DNA from: Mycoplasma sp. CAG:776
GTDB taxonomy: Bacteria; Bacillota_I; Bacilli_A; RF39; UBA660
Direction: 5' to 3'
NCBI GenBank assembly: GCA_000438195.1
Contig: FR903071.1
Coordinates: 87,394 to 151,393, forward strand
Length of the DNA stretch: 64,000 bases
The first letter of the stretch is position 1. The number at the start of each line of letters is the position of its first letter. Below are positions 5,451 to 36,046 of this stretch, piece after piece. Both the position numbers and the translations under genes were made by a program. The notes under the pieces are model-generated. The model was given only the letters and a program-made list of their open reading frames with translations. It did no database searches and was not told the DNA's origin.

Positions 5451-6383
5451 TTATTCACTTTTTCTTGCAGGTAAATCTATTTTTTTAGGTAACTCTATTT
5501 TTTCTTTTACTGGTTCTTTTATTGGCTCTCTAACATAAACTGAACTAAATGTTTCTGGTTTTTTTAGATTATTTGAATTCGTTACTTCATTCATTGGAGT
5601 TACTGTTATTTCTTCATATTTTTTACTGTCTTTTTCTAATTCATCTAACTCTTTAGAAATTGATTTTGCTAAAGCATCAAAATCAATGCTGGGTACTTTG
5701 ATTTTTTCTGTTTCTATTTTTTCTGCTGGTTTATAATATGTATTTATAACTGGTTCTTCATTAATTTGAAGTTTTGGTTCTTCTTCTTTTAAAATTGGAG
5801 CGACAGGCTCATTTACTGAATTTTCTTCCGTTATTATAGTATGAATAGGTTCTCTCGGTATCTCAATTTTTGTAGGTTCTAAGGTTACTCTTTGAGGAAC
5901 TTCTTCTACGATTCTTTCATTTATAATAGGGCTTGTATTAATAATTGGCTCTATTTTTGGCTCTTCTATTACTGGTTTTACTGACTCTTCAAGAATTAGA
6001 TTGTCCACATATTCTTCTTTTGGTTCTTCAGAAAAAGAATTTATTGGTGGAACAGGCATTACAGGAATTACTGGTTCAACTGGTGTTACAATGCTTGGTT
6101 CTACTACTGGTTTTACAGGTTCTAAATTCTCATTTGTATTTGTTTCTAAATTGATAGGAGCAACAGGCTCTGGATTTACAGGTATTTCTACTGGTGTAGG
6201 AACGCTTGTTTCTTTAAATGTATCTTTTGCTTCTAACTTTTGCGTTTCTTCTAATTTTCTTTTCTTCTGGTCTTTTTTGCCAAAAAATAAAACGATTAAA
6301 AATGTTACTACCAAAAAGGCTATAACTGCAAATAAACCAATACCGAAATAATTACTACTATATAATTTATCAAGGAAATTCAT
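5451..6383 (-). CDS. Membrane-anchored Pro/Glu/Val-rich low-complexity protein (start adjusted to MNFLDKLY with GGTGGTG RBS)
   Basis: N-terminal TM helix, then a PV/PE-rich repetitive region. The internal ATG at 6383 has a strong RBS, whereas the track start at 6440 has none. Confidence 0.5.
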   Translation of the reverse strand: MNFLDKLYSSNYFGIGLFAVIAFLVVTFLIVLFFGKKDQKKRKLEETQKLEAKDTFKETSVPTPVEIPVNPEPVAPINLETNTNENLEPVKPVVEPSIVTPVEPVIPVMPVPPINSFSEEPKEEYVDNLILEESVKPVIEEPKIEPIINTSPIINERIVEEVPQRVTLEPTKIEIPREPIHTIITEENSVNEPVAPILKEEEPKLQINEEPVINTYYKPAEKIETEKIKVPSIDFDALAKSISKELDELEKDSKKYEEITVTPMNEVTNSNNLKKPETFSSVYVREPIKEPVKEKIELPKKIDLPARKSE

Positions 6384-6486
6384 CCTTACACCACCTTTTA
6401 TTCTACTTATTAGTCTATCATATCTATATGTGAAAATCAAGAAAAAAATGTAAAGTTTTTTACTTTACATTAGTTTACATTATTAT

Positions 6487-7794
6487 TTAAATTTCATAAG
6501 GTGTGGAAGATGTTCCGTTTCCTGATTTTATAGTCACATCATGGGCCAGATTAATTACTGGGCGCACACCTAAAATATTTCCCATATTATCTCCTGCATA
6601 ATAGTAGTCTAAGCTTCCAGTTGCTGTTATAAAAAGTATTGCTGCTTGGCCTATATCTTGATCATCAAAACCATATGGCGTCATCGTCCAATAATATTGT
6701 TCAGTTCGTAGATAATAACTTTGGTTATTTGTCTTATAATTTCCGCCAGCATACACTACCTCATCTGCTGTAATAAGTCCGATTGGATTATCTAGTGCTC
6801 TGTTTCCTTTTTCACTTTCTTTTACTGTAAATAAATCTGTATTATTTTCACATTTTAAACTAGGATTTTTATTTTTTTCTAATCTATAATATGCTTTAAA
6901 ATATGTTTGCTTGCTCCCTATCCCTATTCCACTATCAAGACTTCGATCATTACAAAAGCCCTGACTCGTTTCTATATCTGAAACATAATTTGATAAGTTT
7001 TTAGTATACCAATTGTCTAGTAATTCTTTGATAGTGCTAGAATTAGTTAATCCATGCAGTTCGTTTAATGTATACATATATCCGACATATTCGCTTTTAT
7101 AATAATTTGAATTATAATAACTTTTGGCTATTTGAGCATTTGTATCATTATCTGTTGGACTTGTTCCTTGATAAATCATACGCACGCTCCCGTCTCCATT
7201 AATTCGAATTATCCTCCAATAATATCCTGCAAACTTTACATAATTATTCTCTACTGCACCTCTAAAATAATAACTTTCTCCCCAGTCATCTTCTGTTTTA
7301 TATATTCCCTCATCTGTTGTTGCTACCTGACTAAAATCTGGTTCTCCTTCATTTACTTTACTATTTGCTAATATTGCATCTTTTAATGTCTTTGACTCAA
7401 CAAAATATAAGTAACATCTTGTTCCTTTTTTTGACATTCCTAAAAAGTTGATTACTCCATTTTGATATTCTATTGTTATATTATTATCTTTCGTATCATT
7501 TACTTCACAATAACTTTTTTCTTCATTCAAACTATATCCACTTGTTGGTACGGTATCTATGCTTTCATAATCTCCATTTTCTTCTTGATACATCGCTACC
7601 ATTTTTAAATCATACGGTGTATAGTTGATTGTTCCATTCACTAATGGTATTGACTCAATAATTCGATATTTGGCTAAACTATTGTTAGTAATCAATACAA
7701 TAAGAAGTATTACTGCACAGACAAAACCACATAAAAAATATATTCTTTTTTTATTTCTTTTTAATGTTTCAAATTCTATACTTTCATTCTTCAA
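6487..7794 (-). CDS. Signal-anchored secreted/surface protein, paralog A of a duplicated family (conserved N- and C-termini, variable core)
   Basis: TTG start. N-terminal TM KKRIYFLCGFVCAVILLIVLITNNSLAKYR. C-terminal GVRPVINLAHDVTIKSGNGTSSTPYEI almost identical to 20174..21529. Shared central motif YYFRGAV-NN-VKFAGYYWRIIRINGDGS. Confidence 0.7.
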   Translation of the reverse strand: MKNESIEFETLKRNKKRIYFLCGFVCAVILLIVLITNNSLAKYRIIESIPLVNGTINYTPYDLKMVAMYQEENGDYESIDTVPTSGYSLNEEKSYCEVNDTKDNNITIEYQNGVINFLGMSKKGTRCYLYFVESKTLKDAILANSKVNEGEPDFSQVATTDEGIYKTEDDWGESYYFRGAVENNYVKFAGYYWRIIRINGDGSVRMIYQGTSPTDNDTNAQIAKSYYNSNYYKSEYVGYMYTLNELHGLTNSSTIKELLDNWYTKNLSNYVSDIETSQGFCNDRSLDSGIGIGSKQTYFKAYYRLEKNKNPSLKCENNTDLFTVKESEKGNRALDNPIGLITADEVVYAGGNYKTNNQSYYLRTEQYYWTMTPYGFDDQDIGQAAILFITATGSLDYYYAGDNMGNILGVRPVINLAHDVTIKSGNGTSSTPYEI

Positions 7795-7865
7795 TTTTAT
7801 TCCTACTTTCTTAAATAAAATTGAAAACTCTTAGCTATATTAAGTATAGCTGAAAAGATGTAAAT

Positions 7866-7890
7866 AGTCAATCAAAAATCGATTATTTTA
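7866..7890. promoter_or_regulatory. Dyad-symmetric candidate operator in the divergent promoter region between paralog A and its HTH regulator
   Basis: agtcaatcaaaaatcgattatttta (AATCA-N5-cGATT / AATCGATT palindrome). Repeated at 8447..8474 and partly conserved at ~21614. Confidence 0.35.
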
Positions 7891-7899
7891 GCCACTTTT

Positions 7900-8394
7900 A
7901 TGCTTGAAATAAATACGCATGAGAAAATATTAATGGTGAGAAGAATGAATTATGGAAAAATAATGAAAAATTTAAGAACTGAAAATTTATATTCCCAAGC
8001 ATTTATTGCAGAAAAAATGGGATTAAAAAGAAGTACATATAAAGAATATGAACTTCAAAACAGTATTATTCCTATTATCCATTTGAATGAATTCTGTAAC
8101 TTTTTCAACGTTTCTATCGACTATATTTTAGGACTAACAAGTAAGACAAATTATGAAAATTCTAAAATTGAAATAGATAAAAAAACGTCAGGACAAAGGT
8201 TAAAAGAATTAAGAAAAAAATATAAATTAACTCAAAAAGAATTAGCAAAGGTCTTAAATGTTGATATTTCTTTACCTTCTAAATATGAGCATGGAATTTA
8301 CCCAATAGCAACAACTTACCTTTATTCGCTATGTAAAAAATATAATGTCTCTGCTGATTATCTTTTAGGTAAGACAAATCATTTACATATATAA
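7900..8394 (+). CDS. Tandem-HTH XRE-family transcriptional regulator (paralog A), probably starting at an internal Met (~7933/7948)
   Basis: Two XRE HTH units, each ending in the typical ...SADYLLGKT. Divergent from the surface-protein gene. Paralog of 21640..22137. Confidence 0.75.
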   Translation: MLEINTHEKILMVRRMNYGKIMKNLRTENLYSQAFIAEKMGLKRSTYKEYELQNSIIPIIHLNEFCNFFNVSIDYILGLTSKTNYENSKIEIDKKTSGQRLKELRKKYKLTQKELAKVLNVDISLPSKYEHGIYPIATTYLYSLCKKYNVSADYLLGKTNHLHI

Positions 8395-8439
8395 TAGCTA
8401 AGAGTTATCAATTCTTATATTAATTATAAAGAACTTAAA

Positions 8440-8633
8440 TTAAAAAGTCAATCAAAAATTGATTATTTTAGCCAAAACGTTTTATGTAGAAGAAATTCCT
8501 ATTAATTTAATTTCCACTATTTTCTATATGATATATGCAAAAAGAGCAATATATCGCCAATTATCTTTTAGCTAAAATTGATAGTCCTAAATATCTTAAT
8601 AAATAGATATTTTTTATTTTAGTCATAGAAGTC
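8440..8633 (+). pseudogene. Decayed remnant of a third tandem-HTH regulator copy (operator plus 3' gene end retained)
   Basis: 8447..8474 repeats the upstream operator. 8560..8633 matches at DNA level the 3' end and downstream of HTH B (gattatcttttgggtaaaata...cctaaatatcttaa.taaata...ttttttattttagccatagaag). No intact ORF. Confidence 0.35.
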
Positions 8634-8666
8634 AAAAAGCGTCGAACTTTGTCGGACGCTTTTTCT
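8634..8666 (+). terminator. Rho-independent terminator
   Basis: agcgtc-gaactttgtcg-gacgct followed by ttttt. A degenerate copy lies at 22167..22195. Confidence 0.5.
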
Positions 8667-9172
8667 TGATTTTTAGTAAATTCAACTTCATAATATAGTC
8701 TTGAGCATTGGGACTGGTGTCTACTAGTTAGACAAATTTCTATTGTTTACCTCCTTTACTTAAGGGTTTTGGAAGACATAGAAAGGAGTTTTTTGATTAG
8801 TTAGTGAGGTTATTATCCAAACTTATAAATTGGTTTCAACCAAAAAAGACATCAACCATAATTATTGTTAAAAACAATATAACGGTTAATGTCTATCATA
8901 AACAAAAGTAGGCATTTAGACCTAATGCTCTACAAGTTAAGTATAATATATTTTTTTTATAAATTCAAGTTCAAATTGTTTCTTATTTCCTATAATAACC
9001 TCTGTTTCATTTTGTTCCTGGTTTTTTCATGAGATTTTACAAATATGATAATGTAAATTAAAGTAATACAAAACTACTATTGATTATAATTTGCTCATTT
9101 CTATCATTAGAGATGAAGATGAGAAAAGACGCTAAGTAGCGCCTCAAGACTATATTACAAGTATGTTTTTTA

Positions 9173-9424: not shown

Positions 9425-9853
9425 TTACAAGCGAACAAGCTCATTTAACCAGAAATAATCTTTATTTTTAAAGTCACAAACAAATAAATTTTGTAAACCA
9501 TTTAGTTCGGTTAAAAAACTTGGTTTTAGAATGTTGCTTTCTAAAAGAAGAAATGCTTTATTAACGATCAAACTGGAATCTTCAGGAATATATTTATTTT
9601 GGATACGATGAACGTTGTGAAATTTAGAATAGAAGTCATTTCCTTTACATTCATTGAAAATCAAATTATTAATACGACTTTTATCAAATGGAGATACTAT
9701 TTGCATAAATAAATCATAAGCTATGCTTACATCATTTGTATCAAAATTATGAATTTCTTCCATCGTTTTAAATAAATGATAGGGATTATTTTTCATTAGA
9801 TTATAAAAATTTTTATTAATATTAAATATATAGAATGTACGCATTTTTCTCAC
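9425..9853 (-). CDS. SirA-like protein (sporulation inhibitor of replication, YneE family), tentative
   Basis: 142 aa, adjacent to yneF as in Bacillus. C-terminal ...DYFWLNELVRL resembles the SirA C-terminus (..RYGWLNPV..). Weak similarity only. Confidence 0.4.
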   Translation of the reverse strand: MRKMRTFYIFNINKNFYNLMKNNPYHLFKTMEEIHNFDTNDVSIAYDLFMQIVSPFDKSRINNLIFNECKGNDFYSKFHNVHRIQNKYIPEDSSLIVNKAFLLLESNILKPSFLTELNGLQNLFVCDFKNKDYFWLNELVRL

Positions 9854-19039: not shown

Positions 19040-20140
19040 TTGAAACATAATAATATTATGAAAAAGAAAATTATTTTGGATAAACTATTTATATTTGTTC
19101 CACTTCTTATTCTTCTTATTATATCTTTATTTAATATGTATTTTGTAAGTATTAAATGGGAAGGATATGAAAGTTATTTGTTCAAACAATCCTTATGGTT
19201 TGGGATTGGTTTTGTTATGCTTTTTATTTTTTATCTTCTTAAACCAAAATTATTTTTTCGTTATTCAAAATATCTTTATGCTATTAATATTCTCCTTTTA
19301 ATTTTAGTTTTATTTTTTGGTACAACTGTTAATGGTTCTAAAGCTTGGTTTAAATTCCCGTTCTTTTCTTTCCAACCTAGTGAACTTATGAAATTTACTT
19401 TAGCTCTCTATTTAAGTCATGTTCTTTCTCAATCAAAAAAAGGAAATATGAAGCAAGAATTTAAAACTATTTTAAAAGCTTTATTTATTACTCTTATTCC
19501 TTCTTTGTTTGTTTTTCTAGAGCCGGACACTGGTGCTATACTTATCTATTTTGTTATTATGGTAGCAATGATTATCGTTTATAAAATTCATATCAAATGG
19601 TATATTATTCTAGGTATTATTATAGTTATCTTTATTAGTATATTTGGGTATTTATATTATTTTAATCAAGATCTTTTAATTGATTTAATTGGGACTTCTT
19701 TCTTTTATCGAGTTGATCGTTTACTTACTTTTGTTAACAATGATTCTTTTCAATTAGATAGAGCTCTTATATCAATTGGAACCTCTTCCTTTTTTAGTGG
19801 TAATGGTGGAGTATATATTCCAGAAGCTCCTACTGATTTTATTGTCGCTTTATCTATTAGTAATTTAGGTATTATTAGCTTTATCTTTATTTTACTTAGT
19901 TTCTTTGTTTTAGATTTTTATTTCTTAATTCAAGTTTTTCAAACCAAAAATCTACAAAATAAAATGTTTATAGCGGGATTCTTAATGATGTTTATTTTTG
20001 CTCAGGTTCAAAATATTGGAATGAATTTAGGAATTCTTCCCATTATTGGGCTTCCTCTTCCTTTTGTTAGTTACGGTGGTACTAATATTATTGTTTATTT
20101 TATGTTTTTAGGTATTCTTGTTAATCTAAAAAAGAGTTAA
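19040..20140 (+). CDS. SEDS family peptidoglycan glycosyltransferase (FtsW/RodA/SpoVE)
   Basis: 10 TM. C-terminal LPLPFVSYGGTNII motif typical of FtsW/RodA. Confidence 0.85.
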   Translation: MKHNNIMKKKIILDKLFIFVPLLILLIISLFNMYFVSIKWEGYESYLFKQSLWFGIGFVMLFIFYLLKPKLFFRYSKYLYAINILLLILVLFFGTTVNGSKAWFKFPFFSFQPSELMKFTLALYLSHVLSQSKKGNMKQEFKTILKALFITLIPSLFVFLEPDTGAILIYFVIMVAMIIVYKIHIKWYIILGIIIVIFISIFGYLYYFNQDLLIDLIGTSFFYRVDRLLTFVNNDSFQLDRALISIGTSSFFSGNGGVYIPEAPTDFIVALSISNLGIISFIFILLSFFVLDFYFLIQVFQTKNLQNKMFIAGFLMMFIFAQVQNIGMNLGILPIIGLPLPFVSYGGTNIIVYFMFLGILVNLKKS

Positions 20141-20173
20141 ATATTCTCTTGATATTTAGCCCTTTTCTTAAAA

Positions 20174-21529
20174 TTAAATTTCATACGGTGTTGAAGATGT
20201 TCCATTTCCACTTTTTATGGTAGCATTACTTGCTATATTGATAACAGGACGAACGCCATGCGTGACATCCACGCTCCAGGAGTCGAGGATGCCACCCGAA
20301 TGCACACGGGACACTTGAGCAGTACTGTTCGTCGCATAAAAGTAAGACGGAGACATAGTCCAATAAGTTTGTCCTGTATGTAGGTAGTAACTTTTATTAC
20401 TTCTTCCGCTTACTCCTCCAGCCATTGCTACTTCGTCTGCTGTAATGAGTCCTACTGGGTTTGTTAATGCTTTATTTCCTCTACTACTTCCACTTACTGT
20501 GTACATATCTTCATTATTCTTACATTTTAAACTTGGGCTTTCATTTATATTTAATCGGATATATCCTCCATAATAAGTTTTAGTTGTTCCTGTCCCTCCT
20601 TGTCCATTACTGGTTGTTTTACTTGTACTTGGCTCTCTATCTCCGCAGAATCCTGCTTCTGTACTTACCTTATCTCCATATCCTTTATTGGCTATATTAG
20701 TTTGATACCAGCTATCCAATGTATTCTTTATTCCACTATTTGTTCCAAGGCCATGTACTTGTCCTATCGTATACATATATCCTACATAAGCATTATTGTT
20801 ATACGTGTTACTGTCTATGGAAAATGTATTTGTTCCTATTTGTGTACCTGCTCCTGTTGTCGCTGTACTTGTTCCATTATAGATTAGTCTTATACTTCCA
20901 TCTCCATTGATCCTTATGATCCTCCAATAATACCCTGCAAACTTGACCCAGTTATTGTCCACTGCCCCTCTAAAGTAATAACTATCTCCCCAATCGTCTT
21001 GGGTTTTATATACTCCTTCGTCTTTTGTTGCTAAACTTCCAAAGTTTGGTGTTCCACTATTGATTTGATTATCTCTTTTAATGGCATCTGCTAATAATAT
21101 AGGTTGTTCATCAAAATACAGATAACATTTACTATTCTTTTTTAAGTTTCCTATTACATGTTCTCCATTAGAATTAGTATATAATACAGAACTGGTATCT
21201 TCATTTACATTATCGATTGTACAATAACTTTCTTCTTCATTTATGACATACCCACTACTTGGCATTTCTTCTATTTCTTTATATGTTCCATTTTCTTCTT
21301 GATACATTGCTATTACTTTAAAATCATATGGCGTATAATTGATTGTTCCATTTATCAAAGGTATACTTTGTGTTGTTCGATATTTTGCCAAACTATTGTT
21401 AGTAATCAATACAAGAAGAAGTATTACTACACAGACAAAACCACATAAAAAATATATTCTTTTTTTATTTGTTTTTAATGTTTCTATTTTCATAAGCCGC
21501 CTGCTTTCTATAATGATGCTAGGCTTCAT
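20174..21529 (-). CDS. Signal-anchored secreted/surface protein, paralog B (likely true start at internal MKIETLK, ~21492)
   Basis: Same conserved N-terminus (KKRIYFLCGFVCVVILLLVLITNNSLAKYR), same C-terminus (GVRPVINIASNATIKSGNGTSSTPYEI) and same central motif as paralog A. Gly/Thr-rich variable core. Confidence 0.7.
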   Translation of the reverse strand: MKPSIIIESRRLMKIETLKTNKKRIYFLCGFVCVVILLLVLITNNSLAKYRTTQSIPLINGTINYTPYDFKVIAMYQEENGTYKEIEEMPSSGYVINEEESYCTIDNVNEDTSSVLYTNSNGEHVIGNLKKNSKCYLYFDEQPILLADAIKRDNQINSGTPNFGSLATKDEGVYKTQDDWGDSYYFRGAVDNNWVKFAGYYWRIIRINGDGSIRLIYNGTSTATTGAGTQIGTNTFSIDSNTYNNNAYVGYMYTIGQVHGLGTNSGIKNTLDSWYQTNIANKGYGDKVSTEAGFCGDREPSTSKTTSNGQGGTGTTKTYYGGYIRLNINESPSLKCKNNEDMYTVSGSSRGNKALTNPVGLITADEVAMAGGVSGRSNKSYYLHTGQTYWTMSPSYFYATNSTAQVSRVHSGGILDSWSVDVTHGVRPVINIASNATIKSGNGTSSTPYEI

Positions 21530-21639
21530 TTTTATAATTACAAAAATAAACTATCATATAATATCATGATCAGTTTCCTAGCTTATAGTTAAATTATAAA
21601 TATAGCTATGGAAAAAGTCAAGAAAAATGTCGGTATTTT

Positions 21640-22137
21640 ATGAATAAAATTATCTTTTTTAATTTTAATGAGAAAATTGACTTGGTGAAAATTATGATGA
21701 ATTATGGAACAATTTTAAGAGAACTTAGAGAAGAAAAAAACTTATCACAAGCAGATATAGCATTACAACTTAACATTCAAGGTAAGGTTTATAGTCAATA
21801 CGAAACAGAATATACAATTATTCCTATTAAACATTTAATCATTTTGTCTGATTATTTTAATGTTTCTTTAGATTTTATTCTAGGATTTACTAAAATTAAA
21901 CAATATTCTAAAACTTCAAATATTCTTAAATGTAGATTAAAAGAATTTCGTAAAGAACATAAATTAACTCAGGAAAAGCTTGCTCAATTTTTAAATACTA
22001 CTCATTCTGTTATTGCTGATTATGAGAGAAATAGATATTTAATTGCTACACCTTTTCTTTATCAAATATGTAGGAAATATAATATCTCTGCTGATTATCT
22101 TTTGGGTAAAATAGACAATCCTAAATACCTTAAATAA
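21640..22137 (+). CDS. Tandem-HTH XRE-family transcriptional regulator (paralog B)
   Basis: Two XRE HTH units ending ...SADYLLGKI. Divergent from paralog B surface gene. Confidence 0.75.
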   Translation: MNKIIFFNFNEKIDLVKIMMNYGTILRELREEKNLSQADIALQLNIQGKVYSQYETEYTIIPIKHLIILSDYFNVSLDFILGFTKIKQYSKTSNILKCRLKEFRKEHKLTQEKLAQFLNTTHSVIADYERNRYLIATPFLYQICRKYNISADYLLGKIDNPKYLK

Positions 22138-22531
22138 ATATTTTTTATTTTAGCCATAGAAGTTAAAAAGCGTCGAATTTTGTCGGACATTTTTTCTTAA
22201 TTTTTTAGTGTTTTACTTCATAATAAATACCTGTTATTTACTGGTGGTAGCGCCTGCTTCATTTTGTTAGTAGTTTAAACTACTGAATTTTTTCAGTGGG
22301 GTTAAATGAAAGTTAGGTGATGTAAATGAGTGATACAAAATTATTGCTTATTATAATAATAATACTTCTTTCTATTATTAGAGATGAATAAAAAAAAGTC
22401 GCTAGCCAAAAGGCATAGCGCTTGCAAATAATGCAGGCGTTATCCACCAAGTGAATAACACTTACATTTATAATATAGTATATTGATAGAATTATTACAA
22501 GTATATTTTTCATAAAAATGTTAATTTTTTC

Positions 22532-22560
22532 TTGACAAAGTGTCATTTTTGTTGTAGTAT
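22532..22560 (+). promoter_or_regulatory. Near-consensus sigma-A-type promoter (TTGACA-17-TAGTAT) with no downstream ORF on its strand
   Basis: TTGACA at 22532..22537, 17-nt spacer, TAGTAT. Transcript would run antisense toward the 3' end of 22696..23442, ending at hairpin 22676..22693 plus T-run. Confidence 0.3.
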
Positions 22561-22695
22561 ACATTCTCGAACATTTAGTTTGTTTGAATATTCTTTTCCA
22601 TTCTTTGATATACTTCCTTTACTTAACTAATATCAAATTCTACTAATTCAAACAATAAATGTTTTTGTTGTTTATAAAGCTCTTATGGGCTTTTT

Positions 22696-23442
22696 TTATT
22701 TTTGCTTTTTTAACTTTATTTCATAAGTGTTTAATAATTCTTTTTCAACATTTCCTTTGTTTATCGTATAGCGATATTCTTCTAATAATAAATTTTCTTC
22801 TGTTTCTTTTTCTTCTAAAGCATAAATACTATTATCTTCAAATTTTGCAAGTATTTGAGTATTTTTATCATAAAAAATAGTTAGTTCTTCCCCATCTATG
22901 CTTTGATATTCTTTTGATTCATCATATATTAAAATATTTTCTAAAAGCATTTTCCCTTTATCATTCCAAACAAAATATTCTTCTTTTTCTTCTTTAATAT
23001 CTGAATAGACACTTATTAATAAATAATCTGTTTCTTTATCTTTCATTATCTTTATGTTTTCTTTATCTATTTTAATATTTTCATTTTGATTTTCAAATAT
23101 CTCATCTATTGTATCTGCTTCAAATTTATCATCAACTTCCATAGATAAAATTTCACGTCCATCTAAATAGAGCGTCAAATCGATTTTGGCATATTTTTTT
23201 TCAAAAGTTACTCGATAATTGCTTTTTAGTTTATGTCTTTTTCCATTTAATTGAATATTATATATTTCACTTAATTCGTTTTCAGTCATATTAGTAGATG
23301 CTTTTTCAATACTTTTGGTTTTTATTATTTCTTGTGCGCCTTTAATATCTTGATGGGTTAATGTATAAATTGTAAGAACTGCTATACCGGCTATAATAAC
23401 AGTTAAGATAATGATACTTAGTTTTTTCATAGAATTCCTCAC
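22696..23442 (-). CDS. Membrane-anchored protein, last gene of the pilin-like operon
   Basis: N-terminal TM (LSIIILTVIIAGIAVLTIYTL). 248 aa, Lys/Glu-rich extracytoplasmic region. Confidence 0.5.
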   Translation of the reverse strand: MRNSMKKLSIIILTVIIAGIAVLTIYTLTHQDIKGAQEIIKTKSIEKASTNMTENELSEIYNIQLNGKRHKLKSNYRVTFEKKYAKIDLTLYLDGREILSMEVDDKFEADTIDEIFENQNENIKIDKENIKIMKDKETDYLLISVYSDIKEEKEEYFVWNDKGKMLLENILIYDESKEYQSIDGEELTIFYDKNTQILAKFEDNSIYALEEKETEENLLLEEYRYTINKGNVEKELLNTYEIKLKKQK

Positions 23443-23506
23443 TTATTTAATATTATATCAACAAAAACCTTTTTTTAAAACAAAAAAGTTACTTTTTATT
23501 AAGTAA

Positions 23507-24502
23507 CTATTTAAATATATTAAATAATTTGGCTTTCCCTGAACTACTGCTATTTAATCTCGAAAAGCCTAAGGCTACTAAAAAATCATCCAATGTTTGT
23601 TCGTGTTCTTTTTTATCATCTAAATATGGTAAATTAAAAAATACTTTACTGTTTGCTTCACGTTCAAAATCATTGATATCTTTATTGGTTAAAACACTTT
23701 TATTTAATACTATTTTTTTATCTTTTAATTTTTCAAAGGCATCTCGATCTTGACGAATTAGTTTATTTAATTTAATTAAGCCTGGTTCGATTAAATATAT
23801 AATATCATTACATAAATTTCCTTGAGTAGAATCATTTAAATCTACTAATATTACCTCAGCTTCTGGATTATTAGCGATATTAAAAGCTAAATCTAAAGAT
23901 GTTGTTGATTTTAAGCTTTTATCATTAAAATACTTGAAGTCTTCTTTATCTACTTCTATTGCTACAACATTATAAGCAACTTCTAAATGTCTTTTTAACA
24001 TATATATAAGAGTGGTAGCTCCTGCATGAGCTGTAACATTTTTAAAGCCTACTATTCTTAATCCTCCACTTCCCGTTCCGGTAAATGTATCATATTCTAA
24101 TACTTCATTATTTGCATTTCCATTTAAATTGTGGTACTGAGCTACATCTTTGTAGGAGTTTGGATTATCAATTAAAAACTTTACAGCATTAATATTACGA
24201 GTAAAATTGTAAATCCCCATTGATACTAATCCTGATAAGTAGCCTCCGCTATTTACCATAGCTGAATCATCTAGTAATAAAATTAATTTGCTAGGATCAA
24301 AATTTACTGATAATTTTTGAATCGTTTTAATATTTTGATAACCTTTAATCGCAGTAATATCAATGATCATTTTATTAAAATAAAAATTTGTAAATATGTT
24401 GGCTAATTCTTCTATTTCATATTCCCCATTAATACTTTTTATTACATCAATGTCTAGTGTTGCTAACATATTTTGATATTTATTTGATACAATAACATTC
24501 AT
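23507..24502 (-). CDS. ParA/MinD-superfamily-like protein with degenerate Walker A (TadZ/CpaE-like?), in the pilin-like operon
   Basis: RIVGFKNVTAHAGATTLIYML...NVVAIEVD resembles a deviant Walker A lacking the Lys. 331 aa. Confidence 0.35.
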   Translation of the reverse strand: MNVIVSNKYQNMLATLDIDVIKSINGEYEIEELANIFTNFYFNKMIIDITAIKGYQNIKTIQKLSVNFDPSKLILLLDDSAMVNSGGYLSGLVSMGIYNFTRNINAVKFLIDNPNSYKDVAQYHNLNGNANNEVLEYDTFTGTGSGGLRIVGFKNVTAHAGATTLIYMLKRHLEVAYNVVAIEVDKEDFKYFNDKSLKSTTSLDLAFNIANNPEAEVILVDLNDSTQGNLCNDIIYLIEPGLIKLNKLIRQDRDAFEKLKDKKIVLNKSVLTNKDINDFEREANSKVFFNLPYLDDKKEHEQTLDDFLVALGFSRLNSSSSGKAKLFNIFK

Positions 24503-24516
24503 GCTATTCCCTCTTT

Positions 24517-25008
24517 CTAATCTCCAATTACATTTTCATATTGTTTATCATCTTGCGCTTGAAAATTGCTTGTTGTTCCTTTAATTGTAAAGCTTGATGT
24601 GTCCCCTATTATTGGTAAATTAAATTTATAAAAAATTGTAATTTGATAATAATTTGTTGTATTAGCTCCTTTATATTTTTTTACACAATAATAATATTTT
24701 TCTCCTTCACGAGCTGGTTCTAATTTAGTACTATTTAAGTCTAATGCACCATATACTCCCGTTTCAGAGTCGCCATTTGGTACACATACACCTTCAACAT
24801 CATATCCAGTATATAATAAATAATTATTTACTAATTCAATAGAGGCATCATTTAACCCTTCATATTTTTCAAACATATTTATTAATTCATTTTTTATTTT
24901 AACTGTTCGGGAATAATTTAAGGTTAATACAATAAATCCCACAAATAGTAAAATAAACAAAATCATTAATTGCAATAACCAAGTTCCACCAATTGTTTGT
25001 CTCATCAT
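24517..25008 (-). CDS. Pseudopilin/TadE-like secreted protein (paralog of 25008..25544)
   Basis: N-terminal MMRQTIGGTWLLQLMILFILLFVGFIVLTLNYSR, then Cys-containing domain. Start overlaps the upstream stop. Confidence 0.45.
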   Translation of the reverse strand: MMRQTIGGTWLLQLMILFILLFVGFIVLTLNYSRTVKIKNELINMFEKYEGLNDASIELVNNYLLYTGYDVEGVCVPNGDSETGVYGALDLNSTKLEPAREGEKYYYCVKKYKGANTTNYYQITIFYKFNLPIIGDTSSFTIKGTTSNFQAQDDKQYENVIGD

Positions 25009-25544
25009 TACACCCCACTACACCATGGGTAGCTATTAGGATCTCCACCCTTATCTACATCACATTCATTTGGTTCATAAATTCTTGCTGTTTCACCATA
25101 TATGCTAAACTCAAATAAATTTCTTATAACAGGTAAATCTAATTGATAGAAAACTTTTACTTGATAGTATAAGGCGTTTGGAAGTTCTGAATTGGAGTTT
25201 GCTCTAATTGCTTTTACACAGAATGCAGGATTTTGATTATCTAGTAATCCTTCTCTATTATATCCTACCCATCCAGTTTCATCATCACTATTACAAACTC
25301 CTGTACTACGATAATTTGCCTCTTTAAAATAATCACTTATTTGTTCTGAAAAATTAAAGCATTTAAAAGCGTCTGGAGTTTGTGAAGTACACACTCCTCC
25401 TTGGTTTTTAATAATATTTAAAATTTCATTTTTAACATTATATGCCTTAGAATAATTAATTGACATACTGATATATCCCGCAAACAGCAAAACAAATACT
25501 ATTACAATGTTAAATAAAGAAAAGCCACCAAATGCTTCTTTCAT
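25008..25544 (-). CDS. Pseudopilin/TadE-like secreted protein
   Basis: N-terminal MKEAFGGFSLFNIVIVFVLLFAGYISMSINYSK (GFSL resembles the prepilin G-F-T-L core, but without Glu+5). 8 Cys. Confidence 0.45.
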   Translation of the reverse strand: MKEAFGGFSLFNIVIVFVLLFAGYISMSINYSKAYNVKNEILNIIKNQGGVCTSQTPDAFKCFNFSEQISDYFKEANYRSTGVCNSDDETGWVGYNREGLLDNQNPAFCVKAIRANSNSELPNALYYQVKVFYQLDLPVIRNLFEFSIYGETARIYEPNECDVDKGGDPNSYPWCSGV

Positions 25545-25557
25545 TTTACCACCTTAA

Positions 25558-25800
25558 TTAACCTTTCCAAGCGCATGTAATATCTTCTTCTTCTCCATTC
25601 TTATTACGATATGTACATCTTACTTCTTTACCATCAGCACTTACATTTTCTTTTAAGCATATGGCTTCATCACATTTCGTATTTTTTGAAAAATTGCTCT
25701 GAATAGATGGCCAAAGAATAGAAAAGAAAAAAAGAGACAGCAAAGCCACTATAATTACAACAATTACGGTTAAATTAAGTTCACCTGTTGCCTCTTTCAT
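25558..25800 (-). CDS. Small pilin-like protein (80 aa) with Cys-rich C-terminal domain
   Basis: MKEATGELNLTVIVVIIVALLSLFFF N-terminus shared with 25829..26080. 4 Cys in the C-terminal 40 aa. Confidence 0.45.
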   Translation of the reverse strand: MKEATGELNLTVIVVIIVALLSLFFFSILWPSIQSNFSKNTKCDEAICLKENVSADGKEVRCTYRNKNGEEEDITCAWKG

Positions 25801-25828
25801 TTCTTATTACCTCCGTTTTTAAATATTA

Positions 25829-26080
25829 TTAATTATCATTTTTTAATAAATCTTTATAATAACTTGAGCAATCTAAATCATCATGTTCTTCTCCTTCTTC
25901 ATCTGTATAATGACAATTTTGATAATTATCATCACATCCTGTTGCCATTGAACAATAAGTACTTGCCTCTATTGATCTTTGAATTCCTGGCCAAACAAAC
26001 GCATAAAAGAATGCAGCTACGGCTGCAATTGCAACTACCGTAACGACTGTCATGTTTAATTCTCCAGTTGCTTCCTTCAT
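25829..26080 (-). CDS. Small pilin-like protein (83 aa) with Cys-rich acidic C-terminal domain
   Basis: MKEATGELNMTVVTVVAIAAVAAFFYAF. Paralog of 25558..25800. Confidence 0.45.
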   Translation of the reverse strand: MKEATGELNMTVVTVVAIAAVAAFFYAFVWPGIQRSIEASTYCSMATGCDDNYQNCHYTDEEGEEHDDLDCSSYYKDLLKNDN

Positions 26081-29904: not shown

Positions 29905-29991
29905 GCCTGTGTGGCGGAATTGGTAGACGCGCTGGACTCAAAATCCAGTGGTAGCAATATCGTGTCGGTTCGAGTCCGACCACAGGCACCA
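29905..29991 (+). tRNA. tRNA-Leu (anticodon CAA), with encoded CCA
   Basis: 7-bp acceptor stem GCCTGTG/CACAGGC, anticodon loop CTCAAAA, long variable arm, T-loop GGTTCGAGTCC. 87 nt. Confidence 0.9.
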
Positions 29992-30063
29992 GAGGGAAAT
30001 CTGCTCGAACCGAAAAGGAAGAGCTTTCGATAAATGTCAATTCTATAGGGAATTGATTTTTTT

Positions 30064-30360
30064 GTGTTAGAAAGTGAGAAGATTTTCATGTTAAAGGTTG
30101 TAAAACAAGAAATTGAAATGGAAGCAGCTCTTAAAAAGAAGTTAGAATTTATATGTAGTTTCTGTAATATTACTCCCATTATCCAAAATGGAAGTATTAG
30201 AAAGTTAGAACAAACTAACTTAATTTATGTAGAACCTCATAGAATTATCATCAAAAATATTACTTTACTTGCCTTTAATTATGAGAGTAATCTTTATATT
30301 GAAAATTTAAGTAAAAGTATTCCATTAAAAGAATTAGAAAATTTTATTAAAACACTATAA
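30064..30360 (+). CDS. Hypothetical small protein (98 aa) at island edge
   Basis: ORF only. Confidence 0.3.
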   Translation: MLESEKIFMLKVVKQEIEMEAALKKKLEFICSFCNITPIIQNGSIRKLEQTNLIYVEPHRIIIKNITLLAFNYESNLYIENLSKSIPLKELENFIKTL

Positions 30361-30584
30361 AAAAACATGCACATCAATTCCTTATCTCCCATTTTACCTG
30401 GATTTTTTCTAAAAATTAGGAAAGAAAAATTATCATAACTTTACCCATAGACAAAACTAGATGTTTTGTTAAAATAAGTATGCTAGGAAAAAATATAATG
30501 ATTTCCACTTATTTAGATAACACAAACTATTTGTCTTGTGTTATTTTTTTATACTTTAAATGGATAGAAAGGATGATGTGATGA

Positions 30585-32488
<1,904 letters not shown>

Positions 32489-32726
32489 CTCTCCTAAATT
32501 TTTCTTTTTTTCTCATTTTTACAACTTTAAAAATTAAACAGGATATGATGTTTGCACCAGTTAAAAGAACCAACCCTTATTTTATAAGACTTTTTCTTTT
32601 ATTTTACTGGTGCCATTTTATTTTTGCACTTGCAAAAATAGATATAATTATATACAAAGTATATTACCTTTTTTAAAAAAAGCTAGGTAAATACTGATTT
32701 AATTTGTATTACTTTTTTATATAATT

Positions 32727-33173
32727 TTATTTTTTACTTTTCCCACAAACAGCACTCATTGAAATATGAAACTCTTTACAAAATTTATATAGATTGGAAG
32801 TAGAAATACATATAAGACCTTTTTCGTATCTAACAATACATGCTTGTGATACACCTAACAAGTCAGCAATATTTTCTTGAGACAAATTATGTTTTAGTCT
32901 AACTGCTTTCATATTATTACCTAATCTTTCTAGGTTCAATCCTTTATTTATTTTTGTGTTACGTTCATTTGTTAAACCAAGAACATAATCTATACTATAT
33001 TTAAAATAATCTGCATAATCACATAAGTTTTTAAGTGGAATAATGTTAATTCCTAATTCCCATAATGAATATGTAGAACGATTTACTTTTAGAATATTTG
33101 CCATTTTCTCTTGGCTAATGTCATTATCTTCTCTAATATCTTTTAATCTTGAAAAATCTATCATATACTTCAC
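32727..33173 (-). CDS. Tandem-HTH XRE-family regulator (island-encoded)
   Basis: Two XRE HTH units (ISQEKMANILKVNRSTYSLWE; LSQENIADLLGVSQACIVRYE). Confidence 0.7.
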   Translation of the reverse strand: MKYMIDFSRLKDIREDNDISQEKMANILKVNRSTYSLWELGINIIPLKNLCDYADYFKYSIDYVLGLTNERNTKINKGLNLERLGNNMKAVRLKHNLSQENIADLLGVSQACIVRYEKGLICISTSNLYKFCKEFHISMSAVCGKSKK

Positions 33174-33275
33174 CTAGGCTAATTATCGCATTAGGCGAAG
33201 AAAAAACATCAATATTGCTATTTACAGTTATATTTTCTGCTATTTTGTGTTATAATTAATAATTAGAAAGAAGGC

Positions 33276-33635
33276 GTGGAAATGACAAAATATTTATCAT
33301 TAAAAGAAAATGAAGAATTAATTATAGGAATGGATCAAAAGCCAAAAGTAGTTAGAATCAAAAATAAAAATAATAAATTACAAATAAGTGAGATTACTCC
33401 TGAAGAAATAACAGACAATATTGTAATTACAGAATTAAATTTTGATGAATTAAAAAGTTTTGTGTTGTACGAAAGTTATTATCAAGAAGTATCTAACCTT
33501 GATATAGATAAGGAAATAATGCAAAAAAATAATGATATATGTGAATATCATTATAAAAAAATTTATGGTGATAATTATAACGAAGATATATCAAATACTA
33601 AGTTTCAAGTTATTATTACTTTTGGCAAGAAATAG
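33276..33635 (+). CDS. Hypothetical protein (119 aa)
   Basis: ORF divergent from the XRE gene. Confidence 0.35.
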   Translation: MEMTKYLSLKENEELIIGMDQKPKVVRIKNKNNKLQISEITPEEITDNIVITELNFDELKSFVLYESYYQEVSNLDIDKEIMQKNNDICEYHYKKIYGDNYNEDISNTKFQVIITFGKK

Positions 33636-33729
33636 AATTTGAAAAAAGTTAACTCTAATCTTAAAAACAGGAAAATAATTTATAATCTACTTAATAAATT
33701 GCTTATTAAATCTTTATTAATTTGTGTCG

Positions 33730-34332
33730 TTAACTTTTTTGCGTTTCTTTTTTTCCGCAACAATACCGATATGGTCTACCGCTTCCACACGGACATTTCT
33801 TTTTGCCATTTTTCTTTTCTTCATATAAATGTAATTGGTGATTTTTTTTAGCAATTTGCCTATTATAATTGTCAATATCTTCTACAAAATCATATTTTTT
33901 ACATGATGGAATTCTAAAGGTAAAGGTTGTTTTACCATCTGTATTTGAAATTGCAAAATCGCCTAATTGAATAACGTCCATTCCAATAAGAGCATCAGCA
34001 CCATGTATTTCTGGTATTTCTGTAACTTTCACAGAGTTAATAACTACACCATTGGGGACAAGTATATCTACCAAATATACATTTTGGGATACTAAACCAC
34101 CAGCAGTGTGAACTTCAGCTTTTGAAATTGGAATTAAATTGCATTTTTTTGCTATATTTGAACTTATTGCGCTTGTTGTCGCTCCAGTATCCCAAATTCC
34201 TATTCCTGTTACTTCTATAGCATTTGCATTCTTAAAAGAAGAAGAAAATGAAACTTTTGTTAAAAGTACTGGAGTAATTTTTTCATAAGGAACTGTAAAA
34301 GCATGCCTAATTTCTTTTTTCGATTTATCCAT
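33730..34332 (-). CDS. Retropepsin-like aspartic protease domain protein with C-terminal SEC-C zinc-binding motif
   Basis: D-T-G-A active-site motif (GIWDTGATTSAIS) and C-terminal CPCGSGRPYRYCCG. Confidence 0.6.
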   Translation of the reverse strand: MDKSKKEIRHAFTVPYEKITPVLLTKVSFSSSFKNANAIEVTGIGIWDTGATTSAISSNIAKKCNLIPISKAEVHTAGGLVSQNVYLVDILVPNGVVINSVKVTEIPEIHGADALIGMDVIQLGDFAISNTDGKTTFTFRIPSCKKYDFVEDIDNYNRQIAKKNHQLHLYEEKKNGKKKCPCGSGRPYRYCCGKKETQKS

Positions 34333-34569
34333 TTAAAAAATTGCCCTCGTGTGAAAAACCTGAATACTATTTTGATCTTCTTTTTCACATTTCTGTATAA
34401 TAAACGTTCCCATTTCTAATTCAGAGGCATAAGTAATTGCCTTTTGTTCTTCTTTGCTGGCAAATATTACCTCTTGATTAGCTATTACTATATATTGTCC
34501 TTTATATTTTTTTAACAATTCCTTTAAATTGGCTTTAAACCATTTATAGTTTCTATCAACTTCATTCAT
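34333..34569 (-). CDS. Small hypothetical protein (78 aa) translationally coupled to the retropepsin-like gene
   Basis: Stop/start adjacent (34332/34333). Confidence 0.4.
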   Translation of the reverse strand: MNEVDRNYKWFKANLKELLKKYKGQYIVIANQEVIFASKEEQKAITYASELEMGTFIIQKCEKEDQNSIQVFHTRAIF

Positions 34570-34722
34570 AGCAAAAACTCCTTTCTTTTAAGTTAGAAAT
34601 ATATTATACTCTATGATCATTAGTTTTACAATATTAATATATCATATTTTTTTTTTTTTTTAAAGCCAAATGTTTAAACTTTAAAAAATTTTATTATTTT
34701 TTACACTACATCATAATTTTGT

Positions 34723-34800
34723 GTTAAAATATTATTAGATTTGAGATTTATCGACCTATTTTAATCTTAAAGGTTCTAAATAGGCTACTCTCTCGCACCA
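34723..34800 (+). repeat. 78-bp direct repeat, copy 1 (upstream of fic)
   Basis: Near-identical to 36047..36124 (2 mismatches). Ends in ...tctcgcacca. Confidence 0.6.
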
Positions 34801-34953
34801 AATTGAATTTTACTCAAAATTTTGAGTTATTATTGCACAATAATTGTGCAAAAAGCATATTTTTTTTATAAAAATGCACATTATTTCATAGATATTGTGC
34901 GTTTTTCTTTACTTTCTAGACTGAATATAGTAATATATTAAGGAGGTGAGAAA

Positions 34954-36033
34954 ATGGATCCTATAAAAGTTAAAAAATTACCACTTGAATATAAACTAGA
35001 TAAAGAGTTAATGAATTTGATTTCAGAAGCTAATTTAAAATTTGGAGAATACAAATCAAATTTAAAAAACAGTCAATTTGATTCAAGATTTTTTTTAGAC
35101 TCTATTATTTTAAGTGAAAGTTTAAAATCAACACAAATAGAGGGTACTCAAATTTCACAAGATGATATGTATTATTTAAAATATATGCCTAAAACAGATG
35201 ATAATTTAGAAATACAAAACTTAAAAAAGGTAATTGATTTTGCCAAAATGCATTTAAAAGATAATCATAAAATTGATATTAAATTCATTAATGATATTCA
35301 TAAGATATTATTAAATAGTGTTCGTGGAAATGAAAAAGATCCCGGGCATATTAGAACTACTCAAAATTGGATTGGCCCAAAAGGCTGTACGATTGAAGAA
35401 GCAACATTTATTCCGCCTATACCAGAAGAAGTTCCAATTTTGTTAAACAATTTATTTGAATATATGAATGATGCTTATGTTGATCCTATATTTATCAATT
35501 TGGCAATATCTCATTCACAATTTGAAACTATACATGCTTACTGTGATGGTAATGGTAGACTTGGTAGAGCACTCATTCCTGTTCAATTAGCTCTTTTAAC
35601 CGAAGAAGAACCAATTTTATTTTTATCAGAAGTAATTGAATTATATAAGCCTACTTATTATAAACTTTTAAACGAAAGTAGAAAAGGCAATATGTTGGGA
35701 TTTATAAAGTTTTTTTTGCAATGTATAATTGATCAATGCAATAATTATATTGCAAAAATAAATAGAATTAACCAAATTTATAATAAAGATATGGAAAAAA
35801 TTAAAATATTAAAAAGTAATGCTGTATATCGGATTATGCCTGCCATTATGAGACAAATTGTTTTTACAAAAAAAGAAATCGTAGAAGAGTCATCAGTTTC
35901 TAGAAATACTGTGTCTATATTAATAGACAAATTAGTAGAATTAAATATTTTAGAACCAGATTCTAATTATGCTAAGTTAGGTTATAGATACAATGAAATT
36001 TATAATGTCTTTGTGGGGAAAGATATGTCATAA
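34954..36033 (+). CDS. fic: Fic/Doc family protein (class II, with N-terminal inhibitory SxxxEG motif); AMPylase-type
   Basis: Fic motif HAYCDGNGRLGR. N-terminal STQIEG matches the (S/T)xxxE(G/N) inhibitory helix. 359 aa. Confidence 0.85.
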   Translation: MDPIKVKKLPLEYKLDKELMNLISEANLKFGEYKSNLKNSQFDSRFFLDSIILSESLKSTQIEGTQISQDDMYYLKYMPKTDDNLEIQNLKKVIDFAKMHLKDNHKIDIKFINDIHKILLNSVRGNEKDPGHIRTTQNWIGPKGCTIEEATFIPPIPEEVPILLNNLFEYMNDAYVDPIFINLAISHSQFETIHAYCDGNGRLGRALIPVQLALLTEEEPILFLSEVIELYKPTYYKLLNESRKGNMLGFIKFFLQCIIDQCNNYIAKINRINQIYNKDMEKIKILKSNAVYRIMPAIMRQIVFTKKEIVEESSVSRNTVSILIDKLVELNILEPDSNYAKLGYRYNEIYNVFVGKDMS

Positions 36034-36046
36034 AAATTTAAAGTAT

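What the first reader, a model, noticed from the sequence alone, without database searches (positions are those of the whole stretch)
20174..22137. Second copy (B) of the surface-protein/tandem-HTH module, 13 kb from copy A
The gene pair has the same organisation and orientation as copy A. The central region of the protein is Gly/Thr/Ser-rich (TTGAGTQIGTNTFS...GQGGTGTTKTYYGG) and unlike copy A. The intergenic region is similar, but its operator dyad is partly degenerate. This suggests the regulator pair has subfunctionalised or is decaying.
Basis: seen in the sequence. Interest (0 to 1): 0.55.

Follow-up and report, generated by a model that had tools for sequence, protein, structure and literature searches.

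The report
Repressor-paired variable lectin-like surface protein
Copy B is an intact, typical member of a large unnamed family in uncultured human-gut Bacilli: a membrane-anchored lectin-like surface protein with a hypervariable tip, paired with its own two-domain DNA-binding regulator, and kept diverse by recombination rather than decaying.

Summary
The gene pair is real. A 439-aa membrane-anchored protein (20174-21493, minus) is transcribed divergently from a tandem helix-turn-helix (HTH) protein of about 147 aa (21694-22137, plus). Both are paralogous to copy A (6487-7794 / 7945-8394), with 54% and 47% amino-acid identity. DNA identity is patchy (67-79%), so this is not a recent duplication.

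B's control region has a near-consensus promoter, TTGACT-17-TATAAT, with arms ATAGCTATA / TATAAGCTAGG bracketing the -10. This core is 71-94% identical to 13 loci in other species whose coding DNA is only 57-67% identical. Copy A is the atypical one, and it carries a regulator-gene relic beside it.

The surface protein is a divergent DUF6273 (C-type-lectin-like) protein. Variability peaks in a loop at residues 381-412. The family is large: 9,633 clusters at 50% identity, and at least 7-11 copies per genome. About three quarters of the loci have a divergent Xre-type regulator.

Syntenic loci with 93-100% identical flanking proteins carry modules only about 50% identical, so modules are replaced by recombination.

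Most likely mechanism (inferred, not shown): the tandem-HTH protein represses the strong surface-gene promoter.

The parts
20174..21493 (-). Surface protein B, 439 aa (longest ORF runs to 21529). Short cytoplasmic N-terminus, one membrane helix, a conserved juxtamembrane motif AKYRTTQSIPLINGTINY, a small beta domain, then a globular DUF6273-like domain of about 300 aa.
   Evidence: ORF and translation. 100% identical to the 439-aa P0001. AlphaFold2 model: helix 6-33, residues 130-439 mostly at pLDDT above 80. Best fold matches are phage DUF6273 proteins. 17 of 38 relatives hit Pfam DUF6273. Four invariant cysteines.
20258..20353 (-). Codons for residues 381-412, the hypervariable loop between YWTMSP and GVRPVIN.
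   Evidence: Highest column entropy among 94 full-length relatives. Lies in the unaligned gap between the A/B blastn matches 20174-20257 and 20354-20580.
21593..21621 (-). Promoter of the surface gene: -35 TTGACT (21621-21616), 17-nt spacer, -10 TATAAT (21598-21593).
   Evidence: Best promoter match in the region, 11 of 12. Both hexamers are invariant or nearly so in 15 aligned loci.
21577..21609 (.). Putative operator. Arms ATAGCTATA (21609-21601) and TATAAGCTAGG (21587-21577) bracket the -10 box, about 22 bp centre to centre.
   Evidence: Coordinates. Conserved in loci of other species, with AAGCTAG invariant. Binding by the regulator is inferred.
21494..21576 (-). 5' leader of surface gene B. 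Contains a second dyad ATCAT-N8-ATGAT (21570-21553), a palindrome/hairpin ATGAAGCCTAGCATCAT (21529-21513) and a Shine-Dalgarno-like AGCAGG (21505-21500).
   Evidence: The hairpin has one pair with a compensatory change (CG to UA in 4 of 14 sequences). Fold energies in B alone are not significant. No Rfam match.
21694..22137 (+). Tandem-HTH regulator B, about 147 aa (longest ORF starts at 21640). Two Cro/CI-type HTH domains and no sensor domain.
   Evidence: Pfam HTH_3 twice, E 1.8e-25. Relatives are about 150 aa. Model pLDDT 93, pTM 0.86. Each domain superposes on the ImmR, P22 c2, SinR and 434 Cro DNA-binding domains.
21668..21688 (+). Conserved block ATGAGAAAAT (21668-21677) and GGTGA (21684-21688) ahead of the regulator start. 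Possibly an extended -10 plus a Shine-Dalgarno.
   Evidence: Nearly invariant in 15 loci, including copy A at 7919-7928 and 7935-7939. The function is inferred.
22170..22200 (+). Hairpin plus T-run after regulator B (GCGTCGAATTTTGTCGGAC, then TTTTTT). Probable terminator.
   Evidence: Read from the sequence. The homologous copy at 8639-8659 is 79% identical over the surrounding block. The terminator scan did not call it.
6487..7794 (-). Surface protein A (435 aa, TTG start), paralogue of B.
7790..7871 (-). Control region of A: -35 TTGACT (7871-7866), -10 TATACT (7848-7843), compact perfect dyad AGCTATA-N5-TATAGCT (7833-7851), and a leader hairpin (7790-7825) that pairs the TTG start codon.
   Evidence: Hairpin -12 kcal/mol, z -4.4. 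The same architecture occurs in L035, L048 and L060.
7945..8394 (+). Tandem-HTH regulator A (longest ORF starts at 7900).
8392..8674 (+). Relic beside copy A. A partial second copy of A's promoter region (8441-8474, 94% identical to 7861-7894), a regulator pseudogene 3' end (about 8505-8600, reads ...ANYLLAKIDSPKYLNK*) and its terminator (8639-8659).
   Evidence: The relic is 79% identical to 22037-22225 of locus B and 72% identical to the regulator 3' end of the syntenic locus L009.

Best explanation
Copy B is one unit of a multi-copy two-gene module found in uncultured, small-genome gut Bacilli; the window matches 'Mycoplasma sp. CAG:776'.

Gene 1 encodes a surface protein. It is held in the membrane by an N-terminal helix and displays a DUF6273-type (C-type-lectin-like) ligand-binding domain. 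One loop (residues 381-412) is hypervariable across the family.

Gene 2 is transcribed divergently and encodes a small protein made only of two Cro/CI-type HTH domains. The most likely mechanism is that this protein binds the two arms flanking the -10 box of the near-consensus surface-gene promoter and keeps it shut. Expression of each surface variant would then be set copy by copy.

The family diversifies by recombination among paralogues and alleles, through mosaic blocks and whole-module replacement at fixed chromosomal sites. It does not diversify by a retroelement.

Shown here: paralogy, domain content, conservation of the promoter and dyad, multi-copy distribution, linkage of regulator and surface gene, and module replacement.

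Inferred: surface exposure, ligand binding, repression, and what relieves repression (unknown).
For: Paralogy and divergence:
- Shown: Identity of the surface protein:
- B has a sub-threshold Pfam DUF6273 hit.
- 17 of 38 relatives hit DUF6273, best E 2e-6.
- The best structural matches of the model are phage DUF6273 proteins, E 1e-4 with probability about 1.
- DUF6273 is described as C-type-lectin-like and as a receptor-binding or diversity-generating-retroelement (DGR) target domain (PMC10743442; bioRxiv 10.1101/2024.10.15.618418).
- A membrane helix and four invariant cysteines fit an outside location.

Family size and copy number:
- More than 7,900 hits and 9,633 clusters at 50% identity.
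- At least 7 to 11 copies per genome in three metagenome-assembled genomes.

Linkage to a regulator:
- 32 of 56 loci have a divergent HTH gene by tblastn, 26 of them tandem.
- About 10 more carry a small single-HTH gene by ORF reading.

Promoter and operator:
- The promoter scores 11 of 12.
- The core is 71-94% identical across species against 57-67% for coding DNA.
- Loci with other regulator types carry other palindromes in the same places, in the spacer and just after the -10.
- Loci with the most divergent tandem regulators (34-42% identity) have a different control region.
- Each HTH domain superposes on classical repressor DNA-binding domains.

Recombination:
- Blocks are mosaic in the alignment.
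- L009 is syntenic with locus A: flanking proteins are 83-100% identical (four of the five at 93-100%; flank DNA 87%), while the module is 47-52% identical.
- Same-species alleles have 99-100% identical flanks and 87-98% identity inside the surface gene.
- L097 has two modules at the same site.
Against: - No experiment or expression data exist; binding of the regulator to the dyad is inferred from position and conservation only.
- The left arm of the dyad varies more than the right, so the true site may be only the invariant AAGCTAGG at the transcription start.
- The regulator has no sensor domain and no partner gene, so the off-to-on step is unexplained.
- About a quarter of loci have no adjacent regulator.
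- B itself scores below Pfam's DUF6273 threshold (13.4 against 23.5 bits).
- Regulator and surface-protein similarities are not correlated across loci (rho 0.24, p 0.19). This fits shuffling, but it also weakens a strict one-to-one pairing.
Confidence: 0.6

Rival explanations
1. Signalling pair. The surface protein is a sensor whose outside lectin-like domain detects a ligand and passes the signal to the HTH protein, which then controls other genes.
For: Tight linkage of a membrane protein with a DNA-binding protein. The short cytoplasmic N-terminus (M-E-F-E-T-L-K...) is fairly conserved. The regulator has no sensor domain of its own.
Against: The cytoplasmic part is only about 12-15 residues. 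The conserved operator sits on the surface gene's own promoter. There are many copies per genome, with a hypervariable tip and mosaic exchange, which is more typical of variable surface proteins than of sensors.
Confidence: 0.1
2. Remnant of a phage or mobile element: a receptor-binding-type protein plus a CI-like immunity repressor.
For: DUF6273 proteins are common phage receptor-binding proteins (PMC10743442). The regulator's best family hits are phage repressor families (RstR; phrog_8, phrog_3). A related tandem-HTH gene sits in a mobile element by tRNA-Leu in this window.
Against: No phage genes flank either copy; the neighbours are ftsW, murD, HU and a P-type ATPase. There is no tblastn hit in 50,697 phage records and no PHROG hit for B. 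The protein has an N-terminal membrane anchor. The same chromosomal sites are occupied in different genera.
Confidence: 0.07
3. One reading: after duplication, copy B's regulator/operator pair is decaying or has subfunctionalised.
For: B's dyad is imperfect and wider than A's perfect 7-N5-7 dyad. The two regulators are only 47% identical.
Against: B's form is the family consensus and is conserved across species. Both genes are intact and are found unchanged in many samples. The decay is at locus A.
Confidence: 0.04
4. The variable loop is written by a diversity-generating retroelement, as in phage DUF6273 proteins.
For: The variable segment sits where the DGR-variable region lies in DUF6273 proteins, at the C-terminal end of the domain (PMC10743442; bioRxiv 10.1101/2024.10.15.618418).
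Against: There is no template repeat in the 64-kb window or next to 96 relatives. Variants differ by insertions and deletions and by whole blocks, which DGRs do not produce.
Confidence: 0.02

Closest known systems
DUF6273 (Pfam PF19789) proteins, for example the gut-phage 'tentaclins' and Mtd-like DGR targets, and the N-terminal domain of the IgA protease ThomasA
   Same: Same domain type by family-level Pfam hits and by fold matches. The variable surface loop lies near the C-terminal end of the domain. The setting is the gut.
   Different: Here the protein is cellular and anchored by an N-terminal membrane helix. The domain is about 300 aa, against 172 in the Pfam model. B itself is below the Pfam threshold. 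Variation comes from recombination, with no retroelement found. The protein is paired with its own regulator.
Cro/CI (Xre) repressors such as ImmR of ICEBs1, P22 c2, SinR, and restriction-modification controller (C) proteins
   Same: Each HTH domain matches these in sequence and fold. The gene is divergent from its target, and the site overlaps the target promoter.
   Different: There are two HTH domains in one chain and nothing else: no oligomerisation or sensor domain, and no partner protease. No solved structure covers both domains (best TM-score 0.43).
Variable surface protein families of Mycoplasma (Vlp, Vsp, Vsa); comparison from general knowledge, not tested here
   Same: Many paralogues per small genome. 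The 5' control and leader region is conserved and the exposed part is variable. Exchange is mosaic.
   Different: These are not lipoproteins (no lipobox in most members). No repeat tracts or invertible promoters were seen. Each copy carries its own repressor gene. The host has cell-wall genes.

Membership tests
DUF6273 (PF19789) | Score at or above Pfam's gathering threshold (23.5 bits) | tested here: not met
   B scores 13.4 bits, E 0.069, with only the last 50 residues matched. A has no hit.
DUF6273 (PF19789) | Homology at family level | tested here: met
   17 of 38 close relatives hit at E <= 0.01, best 2e-6. Several database relatives carry a precomputed PF19789 hit.
DUF6273 (PF19789) | C-type-lectin-like fold | tested here: inconclusive
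Xre / Cro-CI HTH_3 regulators | HTH_3 domain above threshold | tested here: met
   Two HTH_3 stretches: 89.1 bits for B and 73.5 bits for A, against a threshold of 23. Fold match to the ImmR DNA-binding domain at rmsd 1.7 A.
Xre / Cro-CI HTH_3 regulators | Binds a dyad operator at the regulated promoter | not testable with these tools
   A conserved dyad brackets the -10. Binding itself was not measured.
DGR target protein | Template repeat and reverse transcriptase matching the variable region | tested here: not met
   No second copy of the variable region in the window or in 96 relatives' loci. The rest of the genome was not seen.
Bacterial lipoprotein (Mycoplasma-type variable lipoproteins) | Lipobox with an invariant cysteine at the end of the signal peptide | tested here: not met
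   The cysteines in B's membrane helix are absent from most relatives (for example ...NIIIGVVVVAIISAIIL...).
SipW-dependent signal peptide proteins (TasA/camelysin type) | Match to the NCBIfam signal-peptide model | tested here: not met
   No NCBIfam hit at E <= 1. The resemblance of AKYRTT..NGTINY to the TasA N-terminus is from memory only.
Known anti-phage defence systems | Match of the large protein to a PADLOC model | tested here: not met
   No hit for either surface protein; only generic HTH hits for the regulators.

The most novel reading that the evidence does not exclude
The 7-11 or more modules per genome form one regulatory network for choosing which lectin-like surface variant is shown. 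The promoters share related operator half-sites (AAGCTAG), so the tandem-HTH proteins could act on one another's promoters. The conserved promoter plus 5' coding block would double as the homology arm for swapping variable cassettes. This would be an antigenic or adhesin variation system run by a family of paralogous repressors rather than by DNA inversion or repeat slippage.
Probability: 0.15. Interest if true: 0.7.

Novelty: new variant of a known kind. Interest (0 to 1): 0.45.

Why it matters
These bacteria are common in the human gut, are uncultured and have small genomes, yet they spend many genes on this one unnamed family. It is plausibly their main interface with host glycans, other microbes or phages.

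The work gives concrete handles for experiment: a defined promoter, a candidate operator, a small regulator that models with high confidence, and a mapped hypervariable loop. It also gives annotators a way to recognise thousands of 'hypothetical' proteins.

The hot-spot behaviour matters for metagenomics. Flanks are nearly identical while modules are only half identical, and contigs often break inside the gene. Strain-level analyses should allow for this.

Tried and rejected
- Recent duplication: rejected by the patchy 67-79% DNA identity.
- DGR: no template repeat found.
- Known RNA element in the intergenic region: no Rfam hit. The consensus fold supports only one small hairpin, with a single compensatory pair.
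- Defence system or toxin-antitoxin pair: no PADLOC hit for the large protein.
- Phage origin: no tblastn hit in phage genomes and no PHROG hit for B.
- Sequence search of solved structures: none, with either the single sequence or the profile.
- Foldseek against PDB with the surface-protein model: nothing significant.
- Upstream mini-ORF before the regulator (MRK...): its length varies from 3 to 6 codons between loci (read by eye from the sequences), so it was not adopted.
- Link between the module and the neighbouring pilin-like operon: found in only one other locus, so treated as coincidental.
- A pointer sequence downstream of regulator B (GTCGAANTTTGTCGGAC) is absent from the other loci.
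- L095 looked like an inverted surface gene, but the 428-aa protein there is unrelated.

Full report
**What is at the coordinates**

The window is 26% G+C. The longest ORFs are 20174..21529 (minus, 451 aa) and 21640..22137 (plus, 165 aa).

The database protein P0001, labelled 'Mycoplasma sp. CAG:776', is 100% identical and starts at M13, giving 439 aa with a start at 21493. Relatives of the plus-strand protein are about 150 aa. GGTGA lies 5 nt before ATG 21694, so the regulator is probably 147 aa.

The organism is not a wall-less mycoplasma. The window carries murD-like, ftsW/rodA, LytR-CpsA-Psr and glucosaminidase genes.

**Comparison with copy A**

Copy A (6487..7794 minus, 7900..8394 plus) has the same layout, 13.7 kb away. 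The surface proteins share 54% identity (E 5e-167) and the regulators 47% (E 5e-43).

At the DNA level only patches align, at 67-79%. The segment 20258-20353 does not align at all. tblastn finds no other copy of the surface gene in the window.

**What the large protein is**

- No curated family matches above threshold. B gives only a 13.4-bit DUF6273 hit at its C-terminus.
- 17 of 38 close relatives hit DUF6273, with a best E of 2e-6.
- An AlphaFold2 model (pLDDT 73, pTM 0.71) shows an N-terminal helix at 6-33, a low-confidence beta domain, and a confident globular domain from about residue 130 to 439.
- Foldseek against solved structures found nothing significant.
- Against viral models the best matches are DUF6273 proteins (E 1e-4 to 7e-4).
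- Published work describes DUF6273 as C-type-lectin-like and as a receptor-binding domain often diversified by retroelements in gut phages (PMC10743442; bioRxiv 10.1101/2024.10.15.618418). It also forms the N-terminal domain of a gut IgA protease (PMC12402451).
- Four cysteines are invariant, which fits an extracytoplasmic domain.
- The family is very large. More than 7,900 hits were scored, and there are 9,633 clusters at 50% identity, 3,192 of them at E <= 1e-30. The 300-aa domain also occurs 2-11 times in giant proteins.

**Where the family varies**

Column entropy over 94 full-length relatives peaks at residues 381-412, between YWTMSP and GVRPVIN. It is lowest at SIPLVNGT (41-50) and RIIRINGDGS (191-200).

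Near-identical proteins differ by whole C-terminal blocks with insertions and deletions, for example P0004 against P0006 and P0026 against P0037. No template repeat exists in the window or near 96 relatives. The variation is therefore recombinational, not retroelement-driven.

**The regulator**

It consists of two HTH_3 domains and nothing else. The model is confident (pLDDT 93, pTM 0.86). Each domain superposes on repressor DNA-binding domains: ImmR at rmsd 1.7 A, and also P22 c2, SinR and 434 Cro. No solved structure covers both domains.

**The pairing is conserved and multi-copy**

A scan of one genome per species found more than 519 encoding stretches. The 80 loci fetched are nearly all from uncultured gut Bacilli or 'Tenericutes' metagenome-assembled genomes; a few carry other labels (Ruminococcus sp., Muribaculaceae). 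Three of the genomes carry at least 7, 11 and 9 copies.

Of 56 loci with enough upstream DNA, 32 have a divergent HTH gene by tblastn, and 26 of these are tandem-length. About 10 more have a small single-HTH gene in the same position. From the regulator side, L097 shows two modules side by side.

**The control region**

Read in the surface-gene sense, B has:

- TTGACT-17-TATAAT, the best promoter match in the region at 11 of 12;
- arms ATAGCTATA and TATAAGCTAGG on either side of the -10;
- a second dyad and a short palindrome in the leader;
- a Shine-Dalgarno-like AGCAGG.

An alignment of 15 loci shows the hexamers and AAGCTAG invariant. B's 62-nt core is 71-94% identical to 13 loci of other species, whose surface and regulator coding DNA is 57-67% identical. 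A's core is only 57% identical to B's.

So B is the canonical form. A has a compact perfect dyad, AGCTATA-N5-TATAGCT, over its -10. A also has a strong leader hairpin that pairs its TTG start (-12 kcal/mol, z -4.4). L035, L048 and L060 share this architecture.

Loci with single-HTH regulators have other palindromes. In several they occur twice, once in the spacer and once just after the -10. Loci whose tandem regulators are most divergent (34-42% identity to B's) have a different control region.

A near-consensus promoter needs no activator. Operators at the -10 indicate repression. This step is inference.

**Turnover**

L009 is syntenic with locus A. The flanking proteins compare as follows: ATPase 94%, SirA-like 93%, a 69-aa ORF 94%, HU 100%, and a 106-aa ORF 83%. 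Flank DNA is 87% identical. The module proteins are only 47-52% identical, with break points near window 6837 and 9171.

L071 and L048 also have a module beside ftsW, as in locus B. In L048 the module is in the opposite orientation.

Two alleles of a third locus in the same species (gidA-gidB ... parB) have flanks that are 99-100% identical over most of their length. Identity inside the surface gene is 87-98%. Identities of regulator and surface protein are uncorrelated across loci (rho 0.24, p 0.19).

**Decay is at locus A, not B**

After regulator A lies a relic with three parts:

- a second partial copy of A's promoter region (8441-8474, 94% identical to 7861-7894);
- the 3' end of a regulator pseudogene (about 8505-8600);
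- its terminator.

Together these are 79% identical to 22037-22225.

B's two proteins are found unchanged across samples: the surface protein on 21 contigs read, and the regulator indexed in 47 blocks of the collection.

**Verdict**

The 'degenerate dyad, decaying pair' conclusion is wrong.

The module is best described as a repressor-paired, recombination-diversified, lectin-like surface protein of gut Bacilli. It is unnamed and, as a module, was not found described in the literature searched. It is built from known kinds of parts.

Noticed in passing
window 8392-8674: Relic next to copy A. It consists of a duplicated piece of A's promoter region, the 3' end of a B-like regulator pseudogene, and its terminator. 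This suggests an older module was partly overwritten.
   Followed up: yes
window 7790-7825: A perfect 12-bp inverted repeat (15 pairs as RNA, -12 kcal/mol, z -4.4) encloses the Shine-Dalgarno and pairs the TTG start of surface gene A. Equivalent hairpins with changed bases occur in L035, L048 and L060. It may act as a translational control or as a protein-binding palindrome.
   Followed up: partly
window 22696-26080 (minus): An operon of six proteins without family hits. Four begin with short charged heads and hydrophobic pilin-like segments (MKEATGELN..., MKEAFGGFSLF..., MMRQTIGGTWLL...). It is conserved in L016 and in other samples (L088, L090, L091). It may encode an unrecognised pilus or pseudopilus system.
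   Followed up: partly
window 29905-36825: Probable integrated mobile element beside tRNA-Leu (29905-29991). It carries a large serine recombinase whose ORF lacks the first 54 positions of the resolvase domain (30779-32488), a third tandem-HTH repressor (32727-33173), an aspartyl protease-like gene, a Fic gene, and an HTH-membrane protein (36310-36825).
   Followed up: partly
window 61590-61766 (minus): T-box leader (96.6 bits) upstream of the 799-aa ORF at 58763-61162.
   Followed up: no
window 5451-6440 (minus): A 329-aa membrane protein with a long Pro/Glu/Val-rich, probably disordered, region lies directly downstream of surface gene A. Its counterpart in L009 is only 68% identical, although most neighbouring proteins are 93-100% identical.
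   Followed up: partly
L014, L016, L018, L029, L042, L073, L087, L091: Many metagenome contigs end inside the surface gene. This fits assembly breaks caused by multi-copy conserved blocks or by strain heterogeneity at this gene.
   Followed up: no
L048 1628-3530; L016 14-4432; window 19040-26080: The module beside ftsW (and beside the pilin-like operon) lies in opposite orientation in different genomes.
   Followed up: partly
L095 and L096: Downstream of the regulator the two contigs are 99% identical. Upstream, one carries a DDE transposase and an unrelated 428-aa gene in place of the surface gene. The other carries a truncated surface gene. Modules are therefore also lost or broken.
   Followed up: partly
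window 21668-21677 and 7919-7928: A ten-base block ATGAGAAAAT, nearly invariant across loci, lies 6 nt upstream of the GGTGA (17 nt upstream of the ATG) of the tandem-HTH genes. It could be an extended -10 or the start of a very short upstream ORF of variable length.
   Followed up: partly
window 9425-9853 (minus): A SirA-like (sporulation inhibitor of replication) gene in a genome labelled Mycoplasma. Together with the peptidoglycan genes, this shows the organism is a walled Bacillus-class lineage.
   Followed up: no
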